A stretch of 48,538 bases of DNA, taken from a virus. Taxonomy: Duplodnaviria > Heunggongvirae > Uroviricota > Caudoviricetes. The notes beneath the pieces were generated by a model that did not search any database, was not told the origin of the DNA, and was given only the letters and a program-made list of their open reading frames with translations. This document shows, one piece after another, positions 906 to 36,440 of the stretch. Within the stretch, counting starts at the first letter, position 1, and each line of letters begins with the position of its first letter. Both the position numbers and the translations under genes were made by a program. The DNA lies in IMG/VR virus record IMGVR_UViG_2740892445_000002; one strand, written 5' to 3'.

Positions 906-2312
906 TCAGTATCCGGTCGCTTCCCAGAAAAACTTACCGGAGGTTCCTCTGACAGTCCTCAGTGTCACCGACTGCAATGACGGTGAGGACAGAGTGTATC
1001 CAGGAATTTTCCCGGGCTCCCCCACCGGAGAAACCTGAACATTCAGCACTGCTGAAGGAAAAACCACCGGAAAACGGATGGAGTGCAGTGATAACGCCTG
1101 ACCATCGGATTCACTTATCACAAGCGTACCCCATTGTCGCATCCGTCCGGTAGCCTCATCACGTTCCCAGCCATTGACAGCCAGACTCGCCGTCGTGGGT
1201 TTATTCCTGGTACCGTAATCCACCCGCCAGTGGTATTTCCGGGTATCGCCATAAACCGTACAGGTACAGACCGTGCCATTAATAAACCCCGTTGCACCGT
1301 ATTCACCAATGGTGACCCGTACAATGGCGGCGTCATATGTTCCCATCACTTCAATGGTACAGCCGCCCAGATTGAGTTTCCCCGGTCCGACATCAGTGAT
1401 GGCCTTATTCATCGCCGCTGGCAGTGATGCCTTCATTATCCAGCAGGTATGGTCAAATGCCCCCTGCTCTTTCAGCCAGGCAACAAACTCTTCTGTCGTC
1501 CACTCACCTGCTCCGGTTGAAATGTCACGCCCGTATGCTCTGGGCACACCAAGCTCACGGATGAAAGCTTCCCTGTCTGTAATATCTTCAAGGCTGCCTG
1601 ATTTTCCCTGAGGCCCGGCAGGCCCCTGTGGTCCCGGATCTCCCTTTGGCCCTGGAGGGCCACCCGGATCTCCTTTCTCTCCCTTTTCACCCCGTTCGCC
1701 TCTGGGCCCTGTGTCCCCCCTGTCACCTTTTGGTCCCACAGGACCGGCTTTACCCTCAGGTCCTGTGGCTCCGGTATCCCCTTTGGGGCCCGGAACACCC
1801 TGTGCCCCTGTTGCACCACGCTCACCCTGTGGCCCGGTTGCACCTGTCTCACCTTTCGGTCCCTGTACCCCCTGCGGTCCCGGGTCACCTTTATCACCCT
1901 TCGGCCCCCTGGCATTCTCTGCCCGTTTTTTGGCCTCCTCTGCACTGGCTGCGGAGGCTTCAGCACGCTTCAGTATTTCCGCAGCCACCGCTTCCAGCTC
2001 AGCGAGGGCTTTCGGATAATATGGCGCATCCTCAAAGTCCATCAGGAATTTATTCAGTGTTCCCGGTGCAGAGTCCGCCTTCACCAGAATGTCACCGACG
2101 TATGACGGCATACGCCCTTCTGTGTTCAGGGTCACACGGTACAGCCCCGGTTCAACATCCATACTGTAGCTGCCTGTCTCCCCCGGCTGCCCGTATGCCA
2201 CCGTGGTGACAATCACCGTTTCTGTGGTGCGTCGCGCTTTCAGTTCTATTGTGCATCCCGGTACCGGCTTCCCCGCGCCGTCCTTCAGCACACCCGATAT
2301 TCTGACTGCCAT
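906..2312 (-). CDS. stf: side tail fibre protein with collagen-like Gly-X-Y repeats
   Basis: N-terminus [17 protein letters not shown]... matches lambda Stf N-terminus; central run of about 35 G-X-Y triplets ([13 protein letters not shown]...). Confidence 0.85.
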
Positions 2313-2325
2313 AGATTTTCCCCAT

Positions 2326-2359
2326 AAAAAAACCGCAGTGCCGGTTTCCCGGTCTGCGG
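2326..2359 (-). terminator. intrinsic terminator-like hairpin plus U-run just upstream of stf start
   Basis: Minus-strand read CCGCAGACCGGGAAACCGGCACUGCGG followed by UUUUUUU, about 10 nt before the stf ATG. Confidence 0.55.
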
Positions 2360-2688
2360 TAAAAATCGTGGTTTACAGGATTAAAAAGGTGCTATCCGGA
2401 ACCGGAATTCACACAGTGAACTGTGGGTGATCCAGATAATGAGCACTACCGTGATACAAATCACGGTGGTTTTTAACGGTTTTTGCGACACAGAACTTGC
2501 TCCTTATTACGGAGAGGCGCTAACCTGCCACTTGCTTAAGGTAGACGGTTCAGGGCCTCGGGTTAACATTGAAGTTGACTCGGGGCCTTTTCACATCAGG
2601 CCTTCAGGTGTTCCCTCCGGCCATCAGCCAAAGGCACCCGCGCATACTGTACGGTTTTATATCCTTCCGGCAATTCCGGTCATCATGT

Positions 2689-5600
2689 TCACGAAATACT
2701 GATACCCGCCGTGGATTTTTTCATGACCACAACCAGTAAATCACTGATGTATGTTGTCGGCGTCCAGTGGTTCACCCCGTTCGACCACACATTAAACGTC
2801 AGGGTCACATGACCCCGTCCTGCCGGCATATCAATGACGGACGAAAACACCCGGGTGACATCCGTTGCCGGCTCATGAAAAATTACCCTTCCGTTCATCT
2901 GCACCTGTAACTGACACGTGGAATACCATGTTGAAGTGTGATCTTTGCTGGACTGGTGCTCATGTCTCGCCCCCCGGAACAGTACCGGTGGAATGATGAT
3001 CTGCCTGTCGAAGCCCTGGTCATCATAAACGGTGACCGTTATAGTGCCACTGGCATAACTGTTATTCCGTGGGAAAGCTTTCCCCACTGTTTTGACCAGG
3101 TCACCTTCAATCTGGTTTGCAGACAGTTTTCCCAGAATCCGGCAGTTCTGGTTAATGGTCACATTATTGAGCGTGCCAGAGTTCGCATTAATATTTCCGC
3201 TGATATCCGCATTACGGGCCGTCAGCCTGCCTTCCGGCGTCAGGGAGAACACAGGGGGATTGCCGGACGAGGTGATGCTCACCGCAAACAACCGCTTCAG
3301 GAATACGTCGTTCATGAACAACTGATTCCCCTGCGCCACAAACAGCGGCGTGGTGTTGCCGTTCTCCGGGTTAATCATCGCGATACGGTCAGCCTGCAGC
3401 AGAATATTGCTCAGGGTCTGGCCATCAACATCCTCAATCCCCGCACCAATACCAGCAACATACGGAATACCGTTTTTCGTTTTCTGCACCTTCAGCATGT
3501 ACAGTGCGCTCAGGCTGTCATCCGTCTCCTTCTGCACACGCTGTATCTGCTGTATGGTGACACTCTGGTCTTCCAGGATTTTATTGACCGTCTGTGTGAT
3601 TTCATTGCGGGTTTCTGTGATGGTGGTCTTCATCTCCGCCATCTCATCATCAAGCTGACTGTTATCAATCAGCTCCCACATCCCCTGTGCCAGATGTGTC
3701 TTCCCGATTTCTCCTTTGAAAAAGTCCAGATAACCTTCCGCATCATTGCTCGCCCGTCCGGTTGCTTCAACAAAAACGGATTTACCCACCAGGTTGACGC
3801 TGCGCACATAAAACCAGAAATCTGTCCCTGGCTTAATGTGCGAGCCGGAGACGCTCCACTGGCTGCCGGTCCCCAGATAACGGGCGGACGTTTCCACCTG
3901 TGCCGTGTTCGTGATGCGTTTTTCTGAGAACCAGAATTCAAACTGTACCGTCGGATCATACAACGCAAGACGCGGCACTGCTGTTATCTGGAAATAGCCG
4001 GGGGTCAGTTCAATGGTGGCAGGTGCTGCCGGTGCGTTAATCCGGAACGTGGTGGTGGCAGGCTCCCCCAGCTGGCCATAGCTGTTTATCGCCCTGACCG
4101 TCAGGGTGTATTCCCCCAGCGGCAGGCCACTGAAACGGTGCTCCGTGTCGGCGGTGATGGCGCTGGTCACCAGACGGCTGTTTTCACCGGTTCCGCTGGT
4201 CAGGCGCAGACTGAAGCGCACGCCCTTCACCACCCTCGGCGTGTCCCATTTCGCCGCCGCCAGATACTGACCGTCAGACGCGCTTACCTCCACCGTGAGA
4301 TGCTGTACTGCCGGAGGTGTGACACTGTTCAGCGAACCGGACAACGGCTCAAAGGTGGCACCATTATCCACGATGGCCTCCTTCTCCGGCACATGCTGCA
4401 CCGCCGTGATGGCGAAGGTACCGTCCGCATTTTCGCGGATCGCCACACACCGAAACAGACGGCGGCGCAGTCCCGGCAATGCCAGCCCCCAGATACTGTG
4501 TTCCACCACCCCGTCAGGCAGTGTACTGATCTGTATCCTGTCAGGTGATGGCTGCCCGGTAACATCCACACTCACCGGTTTACCGCTGCCGTTTATCAGA
4601 TTCACCGTGGATGTGCCCTTTTCCGGGAGGGTGACTTCACGGTCAAGCGTCAGGGTCCGGCTGGCGTTGTCGACGGACAGGATCCGCCCGCCGATCACGG
4701 TACCGGCATACGCATTATCACTGATTTCAATGATATCGCCCGGCGTGTGACGCAGTCCCTCCGCCCCCACACTGAAATCCACTGTCTGTGTTTCCAGCAG
4801 TTCGGTCTTTATCACCCACAGGCCTGCCCGGTGAGCCTGACCACGGCTGGTACAGCCGAACGCATCCATCTTCAGAAGATTGCGTCCGTAGCGCAGTATG
4901 GCATCCGGATCCTCCACCAGTTCAGTCGATGTCTGCCAGCCATTCTGCGGATCGGTGTAATTCACCTCAACTGCCGTGTGTCTGTCCTTGAGGGCACTGA
5001 AGCTGTAATGAAAACTTACCCCATCCTCCCCCGTCACCACATTACCGGCGGTATAAGTCCAGACAACATCCGATGGTCTGTCCTGAACAAACGTCAGCGT
5101 CTGTCCGTTCCATACCGGCATACAGCGCATTGCAGAGCAGAAATCCCCCAGCACGTCCCACGCCTTACGCTGTTGTGACAGGTACGCATTAAAGGTCATA
5201 CGGGGTTCTGTACCACCAAAGCCATCCGGAACCGGCTGGTCACAGTACTGTCCGAGGGCATAGAGCGCCCACTTGTCCACATCCGCGGCCCCGAGGCGCT
5301 TTCCCATACCATAACGTGGATGCGTCAGCATATCCCACAGACACCAGGCCGGGTTGTTGCTGTATGCCGGTTTCAGAGTCCCGTCCCAGATACCGCTGTA
5401 TGTACGTTTTTCCGGGTCATAGTTTGACGGCACCTGGATGATGCGCCCGCGGATATGGTAGTTCACCGCCATCTGCTGCCCACCGAACTGCTCCGCATCC
5501 ACCTGCAGCCCCACTATGGCTGTGTTCGGGTAGCTCTGTTTCACATCGATGATTTCGGTGTATGACGACCAGAGCGTTCTGTTCTGCAGCTGGTCCGTGG

Positions 5601-6165
5601 TACTGTCCGCCGTCTCCCTGACTATCCGGATATTAAAGGGACGCTCAGGGAGGTTACCGATTATCACCGACGTCAGGTACTGCGAGGTGGTCTTACCGTT
5701 AATGGTGATATCCTTCTCTGTCACCCAGTGCCCGCTACGCTCAAGCTGAATCAGCAACCGGACAGAAGAGGGATTACGGTCACCCTTTGAGGTCGTCTCC
5801 ACCAGTGACTGAACCCCGAAGGTGACCCGCAGACGGTCAATGTTCGCTGACGTGATGGTGCGCGTCACTGGCTTCGCCTTCGTCACCTCCACGCCCAGTG
5901 CGGTTTCCGCACCAGAAGACTCAAAGCCTTCCGGCGGCGTCTGCTCCTGCTCCCCTGCACGCCAGACGGCTGTCACGCCATGTATCACGGGATTACCGTC
6001 CATATCCGTCAGCGGGGTTTTGTTCACCAGAATACTCTGCAGTCCCTTCACCGGACCTTCAACCGGCCCTTCACCAATGGCATCAATCACGCTCATCATC
6101 TGCGTGGACTTCAGGTTATCCTTCGCCTCACGCGGTGTGTGCCCCTTGCCGCCCCCCTTACCCAT
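2689..6165 (-). CDS. J: host specificity protein J (central tail fibre)
   Basis: 1158 aa; N-terminus [22 protein letters not shown]... and extended colinear similarity to lambda gpJ as I recall it. Confidence 0.95.
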
Positions 6166-6206: not shown

Positions 6207-6238
6207 ACAAAAACAACAGGCACCCCAGAGGGTGCCTG
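6207..6238 (-). terminator. intrinsic terminator-like hairpin in I-J intergenic insert
   Basis: Minus-strand CAGGCACCC-UCUG-GGGUGCCUG followed by UUGUUUUUGU. Confidence 0.5.
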
Positions 6239-6369
6239 TCTGCTGAGTGAATAAAATTCCTGAATTTCTTCACACTTCCGGCAATTACCTGTAGCCACCA
6301 TAATTACGCTGCGTTACTGTTTTCCTGCCTGAAAAATAACTCCATAACGTTAATCTTCATCGTTTATTT

Positions 6370-8595: not shown

Positions 8596-9759
8596 TCAGA
8601 ACTGATAAGTCATCCCAACAGCAACGATATTATCTGTCGCAATACCGGCTTTCTGGGTAAATTCGCTTTCATCAATCAGGTTAATTTTATAATCAACATA
8701 AGTGGACATATTTTTGTTAAAGTAATAAGTCGCACCGACATCAATATATTTAACCAGATCCTGGTCGCCATGGTTCACACCACCAACCATAACATCCTGT
8801 CCGCGGGACTGCAGATAAGCCAGAGATGGACGCAGGCCAAAATCGAACTGATACTGAGCAACCATTTCAAGGTTTTGTGCTTTATCCGCAACCCCGGTAT
8901 CACCAAAAGTGGTCATATTCTGGGTTTCGGAATAAATTGCAGCCAGATACAGATTGTTTGCATCATATTTAAGGCCAGTCCCCCACATCTCAGCATACTT
9001 ACCTTTTGCAACGCTGCCGGAATCAACGGACACTTCTTTTTCCGTCACATCCCCCGTTAAAGGATCTTTGACTTCAATAGTTTTGCTACCATTCAGGCCA
9101 TTAACCTGCTTACCTGTACGATCTGACTTAGTATACGCTGCCACAAAACCAAAACCATCAAACTCATAGCTGGCAGAGAAACCATATCCATCACCATTAG
9201 ACTTCTGGAGGTCATCTCGCTCATTTTTTCCCTGATACTGGGCTGCAAAGTTAAGACCATCCACCAGTCCGAAGAAATCTGTATTGCGGTAAGTCAGCAC
9301 TCCGGAAGTACGAGCAGTCATGAAGTTATCAGTCTGCGTCCAGCCATCGCCACCAAATTCTGGCAGAACGTCTGTATACGAACCGACATCATAAGCGATA
9401 CCATAATTACGCCCGTAATCAATGCTACCTAAATCAGCGAATTTCAAACCGGCAAATGCCAGACGGGTTTTATTGCCTGCCGTCCCTTCAGACTCGGCCT
9501 TATTACCTGAAAACTGATATTCCCAGTGACCAAAACCTGTCAGTTGATCATTGATCTGAGTCTCACCTTTAAAACCAAGACGTGCATAGGTCTTATCGCC
9601 ATCATCACCTTTATCGTCTGAGAAGTAATGGAGAGCAGTTACACGACCATAAAGATCCAGCTTATTACCATCTTTATTATAAACTTCTGCTGCCTGAGCC
9701 CCCGCAGCAAACATCACTGCCACTGCAACAGCAGAAAGTGCCACTGTCATTTTTTTCAT
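8596..9759 (-). CDS. OmpC/OmpF/PhoE-family general porin (phage moron)
   Basis: 387 aa; signal peptide then [17 protein letters not shown]..., C-terminal YVDYKINL...VGMTYQF porin signature; inserted between tail genes M and L with AT-rich upstream region. Confidence 0.9.
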
Positions 9760-24403: not shown

Positions 24404-24946
24404 ATGAACAGATACTCTAAACTTCAAATTCAATTACATTGGCTGACTCTCGTATTAATAGCTATAGCCTGTGCTGCAATGGAACTTCGAGGTTTGTTTC
24501 CTAAAGGGTCTTCCTCCTATTTGCTTATGAGAGAAACACATTACAATGCTGGTATATTTATTCTTCTACTGATGATAATAAGAGTAATTATCAATAATAA
24601 ATATATAACACCAGCTATTACGCCGCCCCCACCTGCATGGCAAATGATATCAGCCAAATTCATGCAAACCCTGTTATACATATCTTTTTTGGTGTTACCA
24701 GTATCAGGACTTGCAATCATGGTTTTTGGAGGTAAAGCATGGAGCCTTCTGGGGATTGATATTCCCACTTTCGCTAACACCGACGGAGAAGTAAAATCCG
24801 TAGCCAAAACTATTCATGAATCACTTGCAAATATTGGTTATTTATTAATCACACTCCATGCTGGCGCTGCATTAATTCATCATTATATTCAGAAGGACAA
24901 TACACTTGTCAGAATGCTCCCTGAGCACCAGCATGATAAAAAGTGA
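24404..24946 (+). CDS. cytochrome b561 family protein (moron in bor position)
   Basis: 180 aa, four predicted transmembrane helices, conserved His positions typical of the CybB/b561 family. Confidence 0.8.
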   Translation: MNRYSKLQIQLHWLTLVLIAIACAAMELRGLFPKGSSSYLLMRETHYNAGIFILLLMIIRVIINNKYITPAITPPPPAWQMISAKFMQTLLYISFLVLPVSGLAIMVFGGKAWSLLGIDIPTFANTDGEVKSVAKTIHESLANIGYLLITLHAGAALIHHYIQKDNTLVRMLPEHQHDKK

Positions 24947-29846: not shown

Positions 29847-29851
29847 GTCCA

Positions 29852-29876
29852 TAAAAAAGCCCCTCCGGAGAGGGGC
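29852..29876 (-). terminator. intrinsic terminator after repeat unit 1
   Basis: Minus-strand GCCCCUC-UCCG-GAGGGGC followed by UUUUUUAU. Confidence 0.6.
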
Positions 29877-29898
29877 ATACTAGCTATATATCCATTTA

Positions 29899-30026
29899 TC
29901 ATTGGCTGCGTGGTGCCGGGTGCCTCCCGGTGAGCTCAGTCTGGTGTCACTGAGCCCGCACATTCTCGATCCAAGTTATCGTCGGAGATAATACCTGATA
30001 CACCAGACGCCCCTCCGCACAGGGGG
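29899..30026 (-). repeat. tRNA-like cloverleaf repeat unit 1 (candidate structured ncRNA)
   Basis: Conserved blocks GGTGCCGGGTGCCTCCCGGTG and CCCCTCCGCACAGGGGGATTCACCA; terminal stem CGTGGTG/CACCACG; variable interior. Confidence 0.5.
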
Positions 30027-30263
30027 ATTCACCACGCGCAGAGAAGGATACTGAACACTATTTTCTCCAGGCAATATGCAATAACATGAAGTGTGAGATG
30101 ACTTACAATTATAAAAAACAGCCTACAGAATACTCCTAAATAAAGCCATATCAAAATGAGTAACACAAAAAGGAACCAGGCAAAAATTTACGAGCAGGTA
30201 TTATCCAGCAACAGTTCAGACGCCATAACTTATTGCCGATAGCTACCATCAATAATTTCTTTC

Positions 30264-30289
30264 ATAAAAAAGCCCCTCTGAAGAGGGGC
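30264..30289 (-). terminator. intrinsic terminator after repeat unit 2
   Basis: Minus-strand GCCCCUC-UUCA-GAGGGGC followed by UUUUUUAU. Confidence 0.6.
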
Positions 30290-30316
30290 TGACATACGCA
30301 TTTGCTTTCATCATCA

Positions 30317-30439
30317 ATATGGCGCCGGGTGCCTCCCGGTGCTCCATAACTGATTAATATGGAACGCGGTTTCATTCAGTTGCATTCATGAATAACACTC
30401 TAATCAGTCCGCCCCGCCGCTTAGGGGGATTCGCCATAT
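30317..30439 (-). repeat. tRNA-like cloverleaf repeat unit 2 (candidate structured ncRNA)
   Basis: Same blocks with compensatory changes (GGCGCC... / ...GATTCGCCA); terminal stem ATATGGCG/CGCCATAT; interior closed by ACTGATTA/TAATCAGT. Confidence 0.5.
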
Positions 30440-30574
30440 AAATTGAAAGTACTGAACACATCTGTCACAAACAATATGCAATTGTATGAATTGTGAGATT
30501 ATTATCAATAACACAAAATTACAGCTCTAGTACATAAACAGCAGATTAAACAAGAACAACAAAAGTATTGAATT

Positions 30575-30697
30575 GCACGGTGCCGGGTGCCTCCCGGTGA
30601 ATTCTGCAATGACCAGACAGAATCCGCAACTTGCTACTAACGCTAATGCGACCAAGCCTCAGTCATTATGCCCCTCCGCACAGGGGGATTCACCATG
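30575..30697 (-). repeat. tRNA-like cloverleaf repeat unit 3 (candidate structured ncRNA)
   Basis: Same conserved blocks; terminal stem GCACGGTG/CACCATGC (one mismatch); interior closed by AATGAC/GTCATT. Confidence 0.5.
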
Positions 30698-30827
30698 CGC
30701 TAAAAAAATACAAAACGTCACGTCACTCTGACAATACGAAGCACCATAAAATGTGAGTTATTTATCAATTCTTAATTCTGGTTACAGGAATATTCCGAAT
30801 CAAATCTTTAAAAAAAGAAATTCAAAT

Positions 30828-30930
30828 GCATGGTGCCGGGTGCCTCCCGGTGAACAGACCGTCCGTGATACCAGTAGGCAACACAGGAAATTAATGGTAT
30901 CACCCCACCGCACAGGGGGATTCACCATGC
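30828..30930 (-). repeat. tRNA-like cloverleaf repeat unit 4 (candidate structured ncRNA)
   Basis: Same conserved blocks; terminal stem GCATGGTG/CACCATGC; interior closed by GTGATACCA/TGGTATCAC. Confidence 0.5.
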
Positions 30931-31320
30931 AGGCGTTTTCTTAGCAAACTAACTGCGCGCCCGGCAACTCCCAACCACATAAAACGTGGAGTTTGTAGCA
31001 TTTATGCACATAACTCACAGGGGTTATCTTAAAAAAAGCTGACCATGCTTCCCCGGCAACGCAATAACTTTATTCCCTGAAGTGGCATCCCCCGTATTGT
31101 CGGCAGGCTCAAAAAGGAGCCAGTCATCTGAGGATGACTGGAAAAAGGAAAGATAAAAAATTATTCATCATACAACCTTCGTTGCAGGGGAGAATCCTGC
31201 GGTGCAGCAACATACAAAAACATAAGCCAACTAACAATATGCAGGCATAGCATTTTCGGATTTTGTTATATGGCACGGTAACTGAATGCTTACCTGATAT
31301 ACAGTCCGGTATAAAGTTGC

Positions 31321-31582: not shown

Positions 31583-31660
31583 TGCTGGACCGTCACCGGG
31601 GACTCGAACCCCGCATTTTCAACATAAAAAGGTTGATGCTCTTTCCTGATGAGCTAGTGA
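31583..31660 (-). tRNA. tRNA-like gene with 8-nt anticodon loop CUUUUUAU (Lys-UUU-like; possible variant or pseudogene)
   Basis: Acceptor stem CCGTCAC/GTGACGG, D arm GCTC-ATCAGGAAA-GAGC, T arm CGGGG-TTCGAGT-CCCCG, encoded CCA; anticodon loop one nt too long. Confidence 0.55.
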
Positions 31661-31662
31661 CG

Positions 31663-31737
31663 GCATGGTTGCCTTGCTGGATTTGAACCAGCGACCTGGC
31701 GATTATGAGTCTCTCGCTCTCACCACTGAGCTAAAGG
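31663..31737 (-). tRNA. tRNA-like gene with CAU anticodon (Met/Ile2-like), imperfect acceptor and anticodon stems; possible pseudogene
   Basis: D arm GCTC-AGTGGTGA-GAGC, anticodon loop CTCATAA, T arm GCTGG-TTCAAAT-CCAGC, CCA; only 4 of 7 acceptor pairs form by my reading. Confidence 0.45.
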
Positions 31738-33412: not shown

Positions 33413-34234
33413 CTATCGCGTTACCCTCTTCAACTGCCACTCTGCCCATGCCTCTGCAATATCAAACCGGACCACCAGCGTGTCATAGAATTGCTTAACT
33501 GTTTTTTCCCATGAAGCGCGTGTTATCTGATTTGTCACCTCACATATGGCATCAAATGCCTCCGTTGAAGGTAATCTTTCATAGCCACGCCCACCACAAC
33601 GCTGACAGTTTCTGAAAACCGGCATACCTCGTTTTTCAGACTCTTCACGATGAATGGCAACACCGCGCCCACGGCAATCTTTACAGGCAGTGGAGACCTC
33701 CCCCTTTCCACCACACTCCGGACAGGCAACTTTTACCACCTCCCTGACTTTTTTCCATTCCTCCCAGTAAGACGGATACACGCCTTTTGTACACTTTGCC
33801 CATACTGGCGGCTTACCATCCGGATACTGAATCTTGTTTGTAAAAATCTCGCTTTCAATAAATTTTTTTCCGTGACAGCATGGGCACTGTTTTTTGCTCG
33901 CCGCGCTCCGGGCATAATCCTCAAACGCATACGAAGCCATAATGCGCATCACTACCGGTTTTATTTCTGCCGGAAGTTTTCTTAACGCTGCCACGCGATC
34001 ACACCGACTGAGAGCGTATTCTGCCAGCAGTTCTGTTGCCCGCTCCCTGTCATTCATACTGATGCCCATTTTCCCAAGGAACGCAGAAAACCCCATCTCA
34101 GCCCGATTCTGTGTCATGCCCTGCGCTGCCATCACATCAGTGATACTCAGCGCATCTTTTGACGTTGAGGCCGATGCATCCGTCAGACCCGGTGATTTTG
34201 GGGAATAGTATTTTGGTAAATCTTCCAGTTTCAT
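33413..34234 (-). CDS. Q: late-gene antitermination protein Q (zinc-finger Q family of lambdoid prophages)
   Basis: 273 aa, four CxxC motifs (CPCCHGKK, CPECGGKG, CKDCRGRG, CQRCGGRG); located directly upstream of pR'/tR'. Confidence 0.8.
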   Translation of the reverse strand: MKLEDLPKYYSPKSPGLTDASASTSKDALSITDVMAAQGMTQNRAEMGFSAFLGKMGISMNDRERATELLAEYALSRCDRVAALRKLPAEIKPVVMRIMASYAFEDYARSAASKKQCPCCHGKKFIESEIFTNKIQYPDGKPPVWAKCTKGVYPSYWEEWKKVREVVKVACPECGGKGEVSTACKDCRGRGVAIHREESEKRGMPVFRNCQRCGGRGYERLPSTEAFDAICEVTNQITRASWEKTVKQFYDTLVVRFDIAEAWAEWQLKRVTR

Positions 34235-36107: not shown

Positions 36108-36263
36108 TTACTTCTCAGATTCGTAAGCTGTGAAGACAGCGACCTCCGTCTGGCCGGTTCGGATTCGTACCTCGCAGAGGTCTTTCCTCGTTACCAGTAC
36201 CGTTACAACGACGGTAATACAGATGACGATCAGGGCGATTAGCATCGCCTTTTGCTGCTTCAT
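36108..36263 (-). CDS. hokD: Hok-family type I toxin (HokD/RelF-like)
   Basis: 51 aa MKQQKAMLIALIVICITVVVTVLVTRKDLCEVRIRTGQTEVAVFTAYESEK, near-identical to my recollection of HokD. Confidence 0.9.
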   Translation of the reverse strand: MKQQKAMLIALIVICITVVVTVLVTRKDLCEVRIRTGQTEVAVFTAYESEK

Positions 36264-36440
36264 AGCCTGCTGCTCCTTGCCTTTCGGCGCGTAAGAGGCT
36301 AATCTAAGTGTGCAAGTCATAGATATGGCCTCAGATTAATGTTAAGCGTCCTGCAAGACGCATAATGTTAACTGGGGCTTTTCTCTGTCTGCCTTACGTC
36401 GGCATGCCCGAGGCAGACAGCCTCAAGCACCCGCAGCAAT
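36264..36440. promoter_or_regulatory. hok mRNA leader / mok start / antisense Sok region
   Basis: Minus-strand leader GGGUGCUUGAGGCUGUCUGCCUC... resembles hok mRNA 5' end; in-frame upstream start MTCTLRL... Confidence 0.45.

What the first reader, a model, noticed from the sequence alone, without database searches (positions are those of the whole stretch)
2313..2688. 376-bp non-coding gap between J and stf ending in a terminator at the stf start
The position occupied by lom in lambda is an ORF-free segment ending in a hairpin plus U-run only about 10 nt before the stf start codon, so transcripts from J would terminate before the tail-fibre gene unless antiterminated. The segment could be a long 3' UTR, an sRNA or a lom remnant.
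Basis: seen in the sequence. Interest (0 to 1): 0.4.

Follow-up and report, generated by a model that had tools for sequence, protein, structure and literature searches.

The report
Decayed hok/sok toxin-antitoxin cassette before stf
The "non-coding gap" between the tail genes J and stf of this lambda-like prophage is a broken copy of a well-known small toxin/antisense-RNA addiction module (hok/sok); the hairpin seen just before stf ends that module, as a similar hairpin ends lom in phage lambda, so the finding is real but ordinary.

Summary
The 376-nt gap (2313-2688) is real. J and stf lie on the minus strand. A GC-rich hairpin plus U7 (2360-2326) ends 13 nt before the stf ATG.

The gap is not empty and is not a lom remnant. 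It is a hok/sok-family type I toxin-antitoxin cassette inserted as a moron in the lom slot. Evidence:
- The hok-leader model (Rfam RF01794) matches full length at 2478-2639(-), E 7.8e-6, below the curated cut-off.
- A 36-codon GTG ORF (2381-2491, -) passes the Pfam Hok/Gef cut-off but covers only the N-terminal part of the domain.
- An antisense terminator hairpin sits where Sok should end.

Relatives in 124-172 of 5,426 complete E. coli genomes (by query) and 38 viral contigs mostly carry an intact 46-aa Hok at the same place.

The window copy has ATG changed to GTG and a 104-nt deletion between near-repeats CCGGATAGC and CCGGATGGC. The deletion removes 13 C-terminal codons, a 3' hairpin and half of the element that pairs with the mRNA 5' end. 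Sister alleles carry further lesions, so this is most likely a decaying pseudo-toxin.

The terminator is conserved in every relative that reaches that position. Lambda has an equivalent hairpin 14 nt before its stf homologue. The prophage encodes a Q antiterminator. Low novelty.

The parts
2646..2673 (-). Putative hok promoter: -35 TTGCCG (2673-2668), 16-nt spacer, -10 TACAGT (2651-2646), start near G2639
   Evidence: Read from the sequence. The geometry matches K-12 hokC (TATAAT-agcggc-GGGTGC). It is conserved in relatives, and a variant keeps promoter-like hexamers (TTTACG / TACATT in L004). It falls below the scanner's 9-of-12 rule. No expression data.
2326..2639 (-). Truncated hok-type mRNA, about 314 nt (intact relatives about 416 nt)
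   Evidence: The 5' end is position 1 of the Rfam RF01794 match. The 3' end is the T-run after the terminator hairpin. Lengths.
2478..2639 (-). hok leader (tac-type 5' hairpin 2606-2639, complement of the Sok terminator, Sok-target hairpin about 2524-2554 with loop CUUAAGCAA, anti-SD/SD hairpin)
   Evidence: Rfam RF01794, full-length match 1-157, 34.9 bits, E 7.8e-6 (cut-off 59). An intact relative scores 51.1 bits. The Sok-target hairpin covaries among 27 relatives: score 0.562 against 0.273 in shuffles, 0 of 500.
2381..2491 (-). Remnant hok ORF, 36 codons: SD AAGGAG 2505-2500, GTG start 2491-2489, stop 2383-2381. Sequence VSQKPLKTTVICITVVLIIWITHSSLCEFRFRIAPF
   Evidence: Pfam PF01848 27.8 bits, profile positions 8-30 of 42 only. 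PHROG 251, 53.5 bits. Intact relatives: 46 aa, ATG start, 43.5 bits, profile 8-42 of 42.
2390..2391 (-). Junction of the 104-nt deletion, between near-repeats CCGGATAGC (hok codons 31-33) and CCGGATGGC (inside the fbi-type element)
   Evidence: Alignments with intact loci. The contiguous junction is present in 7 of 5,426 complete E. coli genomes.
2326..2360 (-). Intrinsic-terminator-type hairpin (7 + 4 bp, GAAA loop) plus U7. It ends the hok transcript and lies 13 nt before the stf ATG
   Evidence: Present in every related locus that reaches that position. Lambda has an analogous hairpin.
2313..2325 (-). stf ribosome-binding region (AUGGGGAAAAUCU)
   Evidence: Sequence. Conserved in relatives, and aligns with lambda upstream of orf-401.
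2534..2596 (+). Inferred Sok-type antisense RNA, about 63 nt, with a 16-bp terminator hairpin 2552-2589 plus UUUU
   Evidence: The hairpin fold. The ends were mapped through the Rfam model from the annotated K-12 sokC, which covers model positions about 44-106. No expression data.
2497..2526 (+). Candidate sok promoter: -35 TTGCTC (2497-2502), 18-nt spacer, -10 TAACCT (2521-2526)
   Evidence: Inference by position relative to K-12 sokC. Weak consensus match (6 of 12). An alternative is TTGCGA (2483-2488) / TATTAC (2505-2510). Nothing reaches the scanner's threshold.
33413..34234 (-). Q-type late antiterminator gene, in the same orientation as J and stf
   Evidence: Pfam PF03589, 173.4 bits. 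Annotated 'antitermination protein' in the 99.95% identical M18 prophage.

Best explanation
The gap is a hok/sok-family type I toxin-antitoxin cassette. It sits as an independently transcribed moron in the slot between J and stf, where lambda carries lom. In this copy the toxin half is broken.

Intact relatives (inferred from sequence, fold and homology). A promoter just after the J stop makes a roughly 416-nt hok mRNA. Its first 21 nt pair with a 3' element, so the two ends close on each other as in the tac-fbi pairing of R1 hok. This should keep the message inert until its 3' end is trimmed. A roughly 60-nt antisense Sok RNA is made from the opposite strand. It targets a hairpin in the leader and blocks or destroys the message. 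The toxin is a 46-aa membrane peptide with its own strong Shine-Dalgarno and no overlapping mok frame.

This window (shown by alignment). The start codon is GTG instead of ATG. One 104-nt deletion between two 9-nt near-repeats removed the last 13 codons and stop of hok, the hairpin after it, and the 5' half of the end-pairing element. What remains is the promoter, the leader, the sok gene and a 36-codon ORF. Most likely no working toxin is made and the cassette is decaying (inferred).

The hairpin plus U7 in front of stf is the slot's terminator. In a lysogen it would stop transcripts from the cassette promoter before they enter stf. During lytic growth, Q-modified polymerase from the late promoter would read through it, as it must through the other terminators of the late operon (inferred from the lambda paradigm).
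For: Identity of the cassette:
- The Rfam hok-leader model matches full length at E 7.8e-6.
- The ORF passes the Pfam Hok/Gef cut-off and matches PHROG 251 'MokW-like host killing'.
- The same ORF is named Hok/Gef in RefSeq and NCBI.
- A perfect 16-bp hairpin plus UUUU lies on the antisense strand, where K-12 sokC ends in model coordinates.

Relatives:
- 124-172 of 5,426 complete E. coli genomes, depending on the query, and 38 IMG/VR contigs hold the cassette directly upstream of stf. Most have an ATG-started 46-aa Hok covering the whole Pfam domain.

Lesions:
- The 104-nt deletion and the GTG start are shown by alignment.

Loss of end pairing:
- In an intact relative, nt 1-21 form a -34.8 kcal/mol duplex with nt 333-355. 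None of 1000 shuffles reaches this (mean -20.3), and it is the best site in the whole mRNA.
- In the window the best site is -18.8.
- Minimum-energy and consensus folds agree.

Decay:
- Every sampled GTG-lineage allele carries at least one further lesion: a 20-nt leader deletion in L005, M1 and M3; the 104-nt deletion; that deletion plus a 10-nt frameshift in NCTC9112, LZSFT34, L020, L027 and L031; that deletion plus an IS truncation in A39.
- The truncated protein is on 33 contigs. Each of several intact variants is on about 1000 contigs or more.

Moron character:
- GC is 49.2% against 56-57% in J and stf.
- Morons carry their own promoter and terminator (PMC8065619, PMC3851460).

Terminator and read-through:
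-; Q read-through of downstream terminators (PMC8065619).
Against: - There are no transcript data. Both promoters are weak consensus matches, and the scanner reports none.
- The Rfam score (34.9 bits) is below the curated cut-off of 59. Even intact relatives score only 51.1.
- The family lacks mok, which classical hok loci use.
- A 36-aa peptide that keeps the transmembrane helix and the LCE motif could still be toxic. Several type I toxins are shorter (my own knowledge). Non-functionality is therefore inferred, not shown.
- The terminator may belong to the stf boundary rather than to hok, because lambda has one after lom at the same distance from stf.
Confidence: 0.8

Rival explanations
1. 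The truncated cassette is still a working, attenuated toxin-antitoxin pair. The 36-aa peptide is toxic. The mRNA has lost its end-pairing lock and is always open, so it is held in check only by Sok and by the weak GTG start.
For: The ORF keeps its strong SD, the transmembrane segment and the LCE motif, and still passes the Pfam cut-off. The 5' end now folds into the local hairpin that in R1 accompanies the active message. The sok region is untouched by the deletion. The allele persists unchanged in M18, M3, M1 and CI5.
Against: The conserved C-terminal (periplasmic) half of the domain, including the second cysteine, is gone. Closely related alleles add a frameshift at codon 5 or lose the whole 5' half to an IS, which argues against selection on the ORF. 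The allele is rare next to the intact form.
Confidence: 0.1
2. The remnant is kept as an antitoxin-only module. Sok RNA from the broken copy neutralises hok mRNAs of the same subtype on co-resident or incoming prophages (anti-addiction or cross-immunity).
For: The sok gene, its terminator and candidate promoter are intact. Mouse strains M1 and M3 carry this allele together with a second GTG-lineage copy that still has a full-length Hok ORF and a Sok-target region differing by only 2 nt. Genomes carry up to 5 copies of the cassette.
Against: In M18 this is the only copy of the subfamily (1 place). The other hok/sok locus in the window (36108-36432) has a quite different leader: 107 matches over a 193-column global alignment. 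A39 has lost the sok half altogether. There are no expression or genetic data.
Confidence: 0.07
3. One reading: a non-coding J-stf spacer (long 3' UTR of J, or a lom remnant) whose main purpose is a terminator that gates tail-fibre expression.
For: Hairpin plus U7 lies 13 nt before stf. Lambda has the same layout. Q is present.
Against: The spacer is homologous over nearly its whole length to an autonomous hok/sok cassette with its own promoter-like site, ORF and antisense terminator. Lom shows no similarity at E <= 10. In L004 the same cassette and terminator follow a different upstream gene, so the cassette travels with stf, not with J.
Confidence: 0.03

Closest known systems
hok/sok (parB) of plasmid R1 and the chromosomal hokC-mokC-sokC locus of E. 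coli K-12
   Same: A small Hok/Gef membrane toxin (Pfam PF01848). The same leader architecture, with a full-length match to Rfam RF01794. An antisense RNA that ends in a hairpin plus U-run inside the leader. In intact relatives, pairing of the mRNA 5' end with a 3' element. The promoter-to-start geometry matches hokC. General mechanism as summarised in PMC8621323.
   Different: The toxin is shorter (46 aa intact, 36 aa here, against 50-52 aa). There is no overlapping mok frame: an in-frame TAG lies 10 codons upstream and the upstream small ORFs are not conserved. Scores fall below the Rfam and NCBIfam curated cut-offs. The window copy lacks the toxin C-terminus and half of the end-pairing element.
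hokW-sokW of Sakai prophage Sp5 (PMC8621323)
   Same: A hok/sok-type type I toxin-antitoxin pair carried by a lambdoid prophage. The toxin falls in the same PHROG (251, 'MokW-like host killing').
   Different: HokW is 51 aa and experimentally toxic, with a 71-nt complementary sokW. It is a different subfamily, and the paper text I searched does not mention tail genes. The window copy is truncated and untested.
The second hok/sok locus in this same window (36108-36432, minus strand)
   Same: Same family and same prophage.
   Different: It is canonical and apparently intact: Rfam 114.8 bits (above the cut-off), a 70-aa Mok/Hok frame, Pfam 81.2 bits covering 1-42 of 42. It lies upstream of Q, not in the tail region.
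The lom moron of phage lambda, with the hairpin plus T-run that follows it
   Same: The same slot between J and the stf homologue. In both, a hairpin plus T-run lies 13-14 nt before the stf start, followed by a GGGG Shine-Dalgarno. The T-run to stf start aligns at 73%. The gene is independent of the late operon, as morons are (PMC8065619).
   Different: The cargo is unrelated: an Ail/Lom outer-membrane protein in lambda, a type I toxin-antitoxin pair here. No Lom similarity remains.
Degenerate chromosomal hok loci of E. coli K-12 (Pedersen and Gerdes 1999; recalled from memory, not checked here)
   Same: hok/sok loci that have been inactivated by IS elements, point mutations or rearrangements while their RNA elements remain recognisable.
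   Different: Here the inactivation is a repeat-mediated internal deletion plus a start-codon change, in a prophage tail-gene slot.

Membership tests
hok/sok type I toxin-antitoxin family | Small ORF of the Hok/Gef family (Pfam PF01848) | tested here: met
   27.8 bits against a cut-off of 22, E 1.9e-6. PHROG 251, 53.5 bits. NCBIfam Hok models score only 26 bits, far below their cut-offs of 73 and 89.
hok/sok type I toxin-antitoxin family | Complete toxin, including the conserved C-terminal (periplasmic) part | tested here: not met
   The match covers profile positions 8-30 of 42. Intact relatives cover 8-42. Thirteen codons are replaced by Pro-Phe-stop.
hok/sok type I toxin-antitoxin family | hok mRNA leader with the family's conserved secondary structure (Rfam RF01794) | tested here: inconclusive
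   Full-length match 1-157, E 7.8e-6, but 34.9 bits against a gathering score of 59. An intact relative scores 51.1 bits. The canonical locus in the same window scores 114.8 bits.
hok/sok type I toxin-antitoxin family | Cis-encoded antisense RNA (Sok) with its own promoter and terminator, overlapping the leader | tested here: inconclusive
   A 16-bp hairpin plus UUUU lies on the antisense strand at the homologous position. The promoter hexamers are weak and the scanner finds none. No transcript data.
hok/sok type I toxin-antitoxin family | Antisense target hairpin in the leader, kept by compensatory change | tested here: met
   Tested on 27 relatives. 95.8% of cells are paired against 81.7% in shuffles. 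The covariation score is 0.562 against 0.273 (0 of 500 shuffles reach it), and slid controls are at most 0.20. The window has the CUAC/GUGG plus CCUG/CAGG version, read by eye. It is not part of the minimum-energy fold of the whole remnant.
hok/sok type I toxin-antitoxin family | Pairing of the mRNA 5' end with a 3' element (tac-fbi end pairing) | tested here: not met
   Window: the best partner gives -18.8 kcal/mol, within the shuffle range, and the 5' end folds locally. Intact relatives: -34.8 kcal/mol, reached by 0 of 1000 shuffles. The deletion removed the UCAGCC half of the partner.
hok/sok type I toxin-antitoxin family | Overlapping mok reading frame that couples hok translation | tested here: not met
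   No ORF overlaps the hok start in the window or in intact relatives. This holds for the whole subfamily, not only the window.
hok/sok type I toxin-antitoxin family | Toxicity of the peptide and rescue by the antisense RNA | not testable with these tools
   Needs expression experiments.
Phage moron | An extra gene within the late operon with its own promoter and terminator and a deviating base composition | tested here: met
   A promoter-like site at 2673-2646 and a terminator at 2360-2326. GC is 49.2% against 56-57% in the flanks. The slot holds lom in lambda and this cassette in E. coli prophages. Promoter activity was not tested.
Intrinsic (Rho-independent) terminator | GC-rich hairpin directly followed by a U-run, on the transcribed strand | tested here: met
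   A stem of 7 + 4 bp, a GAAA loop and U7. z = -3.4. Conserved in all relatives that reach it. The other strand has no U-run after the hairpin. Termination efficiency was not tested.
lom (Ail/Lom family) remnant | Residual protein or DNA similarity to lambda lom | tested here: not met
   tblastn of lambda Lom finds no hit in 2200-2800 at E <= 10 and none in the window at E <= 1e-3. blastn aligns only the T-run and stf start.

The most novel reading that the evidence does not exclude
The broken copy is not mere debris. It is a retained antitoxin-only (Sok) module, part of a wider pattern in which tail-slot hok/sok cassettes of co-resident lambdoid prophages diversify their Sok-target hairpin, either to avoid or to exploit cross-neutralisation. 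The hairpin is by far the most variable part of the locus, and it varies by compensatory change.
Probability: 0.1. Interest if true: 0.4.

Novelty: new member of a known kind. Interest (0 to 1): 0.18.

Why it matters
It corrects an annotation-level misreading. The J-stf spacer of this prophage family is a cargo slot holding a type I toxin-antitoxin cassette, not a regulatory spacer or a lom relic. The window shows a clear example of how such a toxin gene dies: one repeat-mediated deletion takes out the toxin tail and the mRNA lock together. It also shows that a terminator immediately upstream of stf is normal lambdoid architecture, passed by Q-modified polymerase. The practical value is modest: better annotation of a diverged, mok-less Hok subfamily that falls below the Rfam and NCBIfam thresholds.

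Tried and rejected
- lom remnant. Rejected: no protein or DNA similarity.
- Curated RNA family at gathering threshold in the gap. None; only the sub-threshold sok hit. The other E-value hits (mir-540, snoRNA, isrG, Toga CRE) are chance matches to hairpins at E >= 1.
- Plus-strand ORFs in the gap (91, 75 and 56 aa). They are antisense to hok and are broken up in relatives, so they were rejected as genes.
- mok frame. Looked for in the window and in an intact relative; absent.
- The simple promoter/terminator scanner found nothing in the gap. The terminator has a bulged stem and the promoter hexamers are weak.
A DNA pattern was used instead.
- Two scans of the species-representative genomes with conserved 20-23-mers found nothing. 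At this DNA identity the cassette was seen only in strain-specific E. coli prophages.
- Literature searches found no description of a hok/sok cassette between J and stf. The Pas-sRNA preprint was not relevant.
- Cross-pairing of the remnant's Sok with the window's other hok leader. There is no extended complementarity.

Full report
**Observation**

J (1158 aa, 2689..6165) and the stf-like gene (468 aa, 906..2312; Pfam phage_tail_N, collagen repeats, gp53-like C-terminus) both lie on the minus strand. They leave exactly 2313..2688 unassigned.

Read on the minus strand, the gap ends with a bulged hairpin: ACCGCAG-a-CCGG-GAAA-CCGG-ca-CTGCGGT (2360-2332). Seven T follow (2332-2326), then 13 nt containing GGGG(A), then the stf ATG. 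The region folds at -23.8 kcal/mol, z = -3.4, and 0 of 200 shuffles fold as well. The observed layout is therefore real. The 'about 10 nt' is 13 nt.

**What the gap contains**

Four lines of evidence point to a hok/sok cassette:
- A permissive Rfam scan gave one meaningful hit. The 'sok' family RF01794 is in fact a model of the hok mRNA leader. It matched over its whole length (1-157) at 2478-2639 on the minus strand, at 34.9 bits and E 7.8e-6, below the gathering score of 59.
- Directly downstream lies a 36-codon ORF (2381..2491, minus strand) with AAGGAG 8 nt before a GTG start. Its product, VSQKPLKTTVICITVVLIIWITHSSLCEFRFRIAPF, passes the Pfam Hok/Gef cut-off (27.8 against 22 bits) but covers only profile positions 8-30 of 42. 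It also matches PHROG 251 'MokW-like host killing'.
- On the opposite strand, a perfect 16-bp hairpin followed by UUUU (2552-2593) sits inside the leader.
- Mapping the annotated K-12 sokC RNA through the same Rfam model (positions about 44-106) places a Sok-type RNA at about 2534-2596 on the plus strand. A weak candidate promoter is TTGCTC-18-TAACCT.

A promoter-like site follows the J stop: TTGCCG-16-TACAGT, with the start near G2639. It has the same geometry as the hokC promoter. Neither promoter reaches the scanner's threshold. Both are inferences.

**Relatives**

The gap sequence occurs in 124 of 5,426 complete E. coli genomes (172 when a longer relative is used as query) and in 38 IMG/VR contigs. 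It always lies immediately upstream of an stf-type gene. In the loci inspected J is usually the upstream gene, and there RefSeq mostly annotates a 'Hok/Gef family protein'.

Most copies encode a 46-aa protein, MSQKPLKTTVICITVVLIIWITHSSLCEFRFRIAGAEIAAFLQCKQ. It starts with ATG and covers the complete Pfam domain (43.5 bits, 8-42 of 42). Two conserved 20-23-mers were absent from the species-representative genome set. The cassette is therefore strain-level prophage cargo.

**Lesions in the window**

Alignment shows two differences from the intact form:
- ATG is changed to GTG.
- A 104-nt deletion has end points in the near-repeats CCGGATAGC (hok codons 31-33) and CCGGATGGC.

The deletion removes the last 13 codons and stop of hok, the GGGGGA...TCCCCC hairpin behind it, and the 5' half of a 3' element.

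In intact relatives the first 21 nt of the mRNA form a -34.8 kcal/mol duplex with nt 333-355. This is the best site in the whole message, and 0 of 1000 shuffles reach it (mean -20.3). Both the minimum-energy folds and the RNAalifold consensus of 27 distinct sequences close the molecule in this way. This corresponds to the end pairing (tac-fbi) that keeps R1 hok mRNA inert until 3' trimming (my own knowledge of the R1 system). PMC8621323 summarises the 3' processing and the more active truncated mRNA.

In the window this partner is gone. The best site gives -18.8 kcal/mol, and the 5' end folds into a local hairpin.

One caveat: the 5' element shows no variation in my sample because it was the search pattern. 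The end pairing is therefore supported by energy, not by covariation.

**Evidence for decay**

- The contiguous deletion junction occurs in 7 complete genomes.
- All of them have the GTG start, and several carry additional damage. NCTC9112 and LZSFT34 (and IMG/VR loci L020, L027, L031) have a 10-nt frameshift deletion at codon 5. A39 has lost the promoter, leader and sok to an IS element.
- The only GTG-lineage allele with a full ORF (L005, identical in M1 and M3) has a 20-nt deletion in the leader.
- The exact 36-aa protein is recorded on 33 contigs. Each of several 46-aa variants is on about 1000 contigs or more.
- Disrupted alleles also occur in the ATG lineage: L026 and L021 have frameshifts, and L012 has its SD changed to AAGGGG.

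I infer that the window's toxin is dead or dying. Residual toxicity of a 36-aa membrane peptide cannot be excluded without an experiment.

**The terminator**

The hairpin plus U-run is present in every related locus that reaches that position, with changes only in its bulge. In intact copies it lies about 30 nt after the end-pairing element, which makes it the 3' end of the hok transcript.

Lambda has the same layout. After lom comes AGCCCGCCGGAACCGGTGGGC-TTTTTT, then 14 nt including GGGG, then the orf-401 (stf) ATG. The T-run to stf start aligns with the window at 73%. By eye the two hairpins share a CCGG-(G)AA(A)-CCGG core.

The terminator is thus a constant of the cargo slot, whichever cargo sits in it. 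Other facts fit:
- In L004 the cassette and terminator follow a different upstream gene, so they travel with stf.
- The prophage encodes Q (PF03589, 173 bits) in the same orientation.
- The late operon contains other strong terminator-like hairpins, for example 6240-6215 before J and 8428-8411.
- Q-modified polymerase reads through downstream terminators (PMC8065619).

**Not lom**

tblastn with lambda Lom gives nothing in the gap at E <= 10, and nothing in the window at E <= 1e-3. The gap's GC is 49.2% against 56-57% in J and stf. That fits a moron with its own promoter and terminator (PMC8065619, PMC3851460).

**Comparison and membership**

The cassette works like hok/sok, and by Pfam its ORF is a Hok/Gef member. 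The subfamily differs in three ways:
- The toxin is 46 aa.
- There is no mok frame.
- Scores fall below the Rfam and NCBIfam cut-offs.

The window copy fails two defining features that its relatives meet: a complete toxin and 5'-3' end pairing. The same window also holds a canonical, apparently intact hok/sok locus at 36108-36432 (Rfam 114.8 bits; a 70-aa Mok/Hok frame; Pfam 81.2 bits). I found no paper describing a hok/sok cassette in the J-stf slot. hokW-sokW of Sp5 is the nearest studied prophage example (PMC8621323).

**Context**

Window positions 1-34406 are 99.95% identical to a prophage of E. coli M18 integrated next to potC. The early region differs.

**Verdict**

The feature is a decayed member of a known family in a known kind of slot. 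Interest is low. The one mildly interesting thread is the hypervariable, covarying Sok-target hairpin among relatives, together with the possibility that broken copies survive as antitoxin donors. I rate that possibility at about 10%.

Noticed in passing
window 36108-36432 (minus strand): A second, canonical and apparently intact hok/sok locus. Rfam RF01794 scores 114.8 bits at 36258-36432. A 70-aa Mok/Hok frame lies at 36108-36320 (HokC/HokD-like; Pfam 81.2 bits over the whole domain). It lies upstream of the Q gene.
   Followed up: partly
relatives: alignment A2 columns 92-117 (equivalent to window about 2524-2554, minus strand): The Sok-target hairpin is by far the most variable part of the cassette: pairwise diversity 0.267 against 0.012 in the hok coding region. 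At least seven stem variants are kept by compensatory changes. In 3 of 5 genomes with two copies, the two copies carry different variants. This suggests diversification of Sok/hok recognition.
   Followed up: partly
E. coli M1 and M3 (NZ_CP010180, NZ_CP010183); IMG/VR locus L005: These mouse strains carry two GTG-lineage cassettes in two prophages. One is identical to the window's deleted allele. The other has a full-length Hok ORF but a 20-nt deletion in the mRNA leader.
   Followed up: partly
window 29847-30960 (minus strand): Four tandem copies of the sRNA family STnc100 (RF02076; 77-133 bits against a cut-off of 47) lie downstream of two tRNA genes (31589-31737), in the region between Q and the lysis genes.
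   Followed up: no
window about 8596-9759 (minus strand), with a hairpin at 8428-8411: The 99.95% identical M18 prophage annotates an OmpC-type porin gene inside the tail gene cluster, between tail genes. It is followed by a 7-GC-pair hairpin plus TTTTTT. This is another moron-like insertion in the late operon.
   Followed up: no
window about 24404-24946 (plus strand): A cytochrome b-type gene (per the M18 annotation) is encoded opposite to the late genes, between the lysis and terminase regions.
   Followed up: no
window 6215-6240 (minus strand): A strong 11-bp terminator-like hairpin lies just upstream of the J start, inside the late operon.
   Followed up: no
protein cluster of the 36-aa ORF (P0003): Another truncated form, a 27-aa 'Hok/Gef family protein', is recorded on 440 contigs. 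Shortened versions of this toxin may be common.
   Followed up: no
IMG/VR loci L026, L021, L012: ATG-lineage copies also show inactivating changes: one extra G gives a frameshift at codon 35, a 1-nt deletion occurs at codon 4, and the SD is changed from AAGGAG to AAGGGG.
   Followed up: partly
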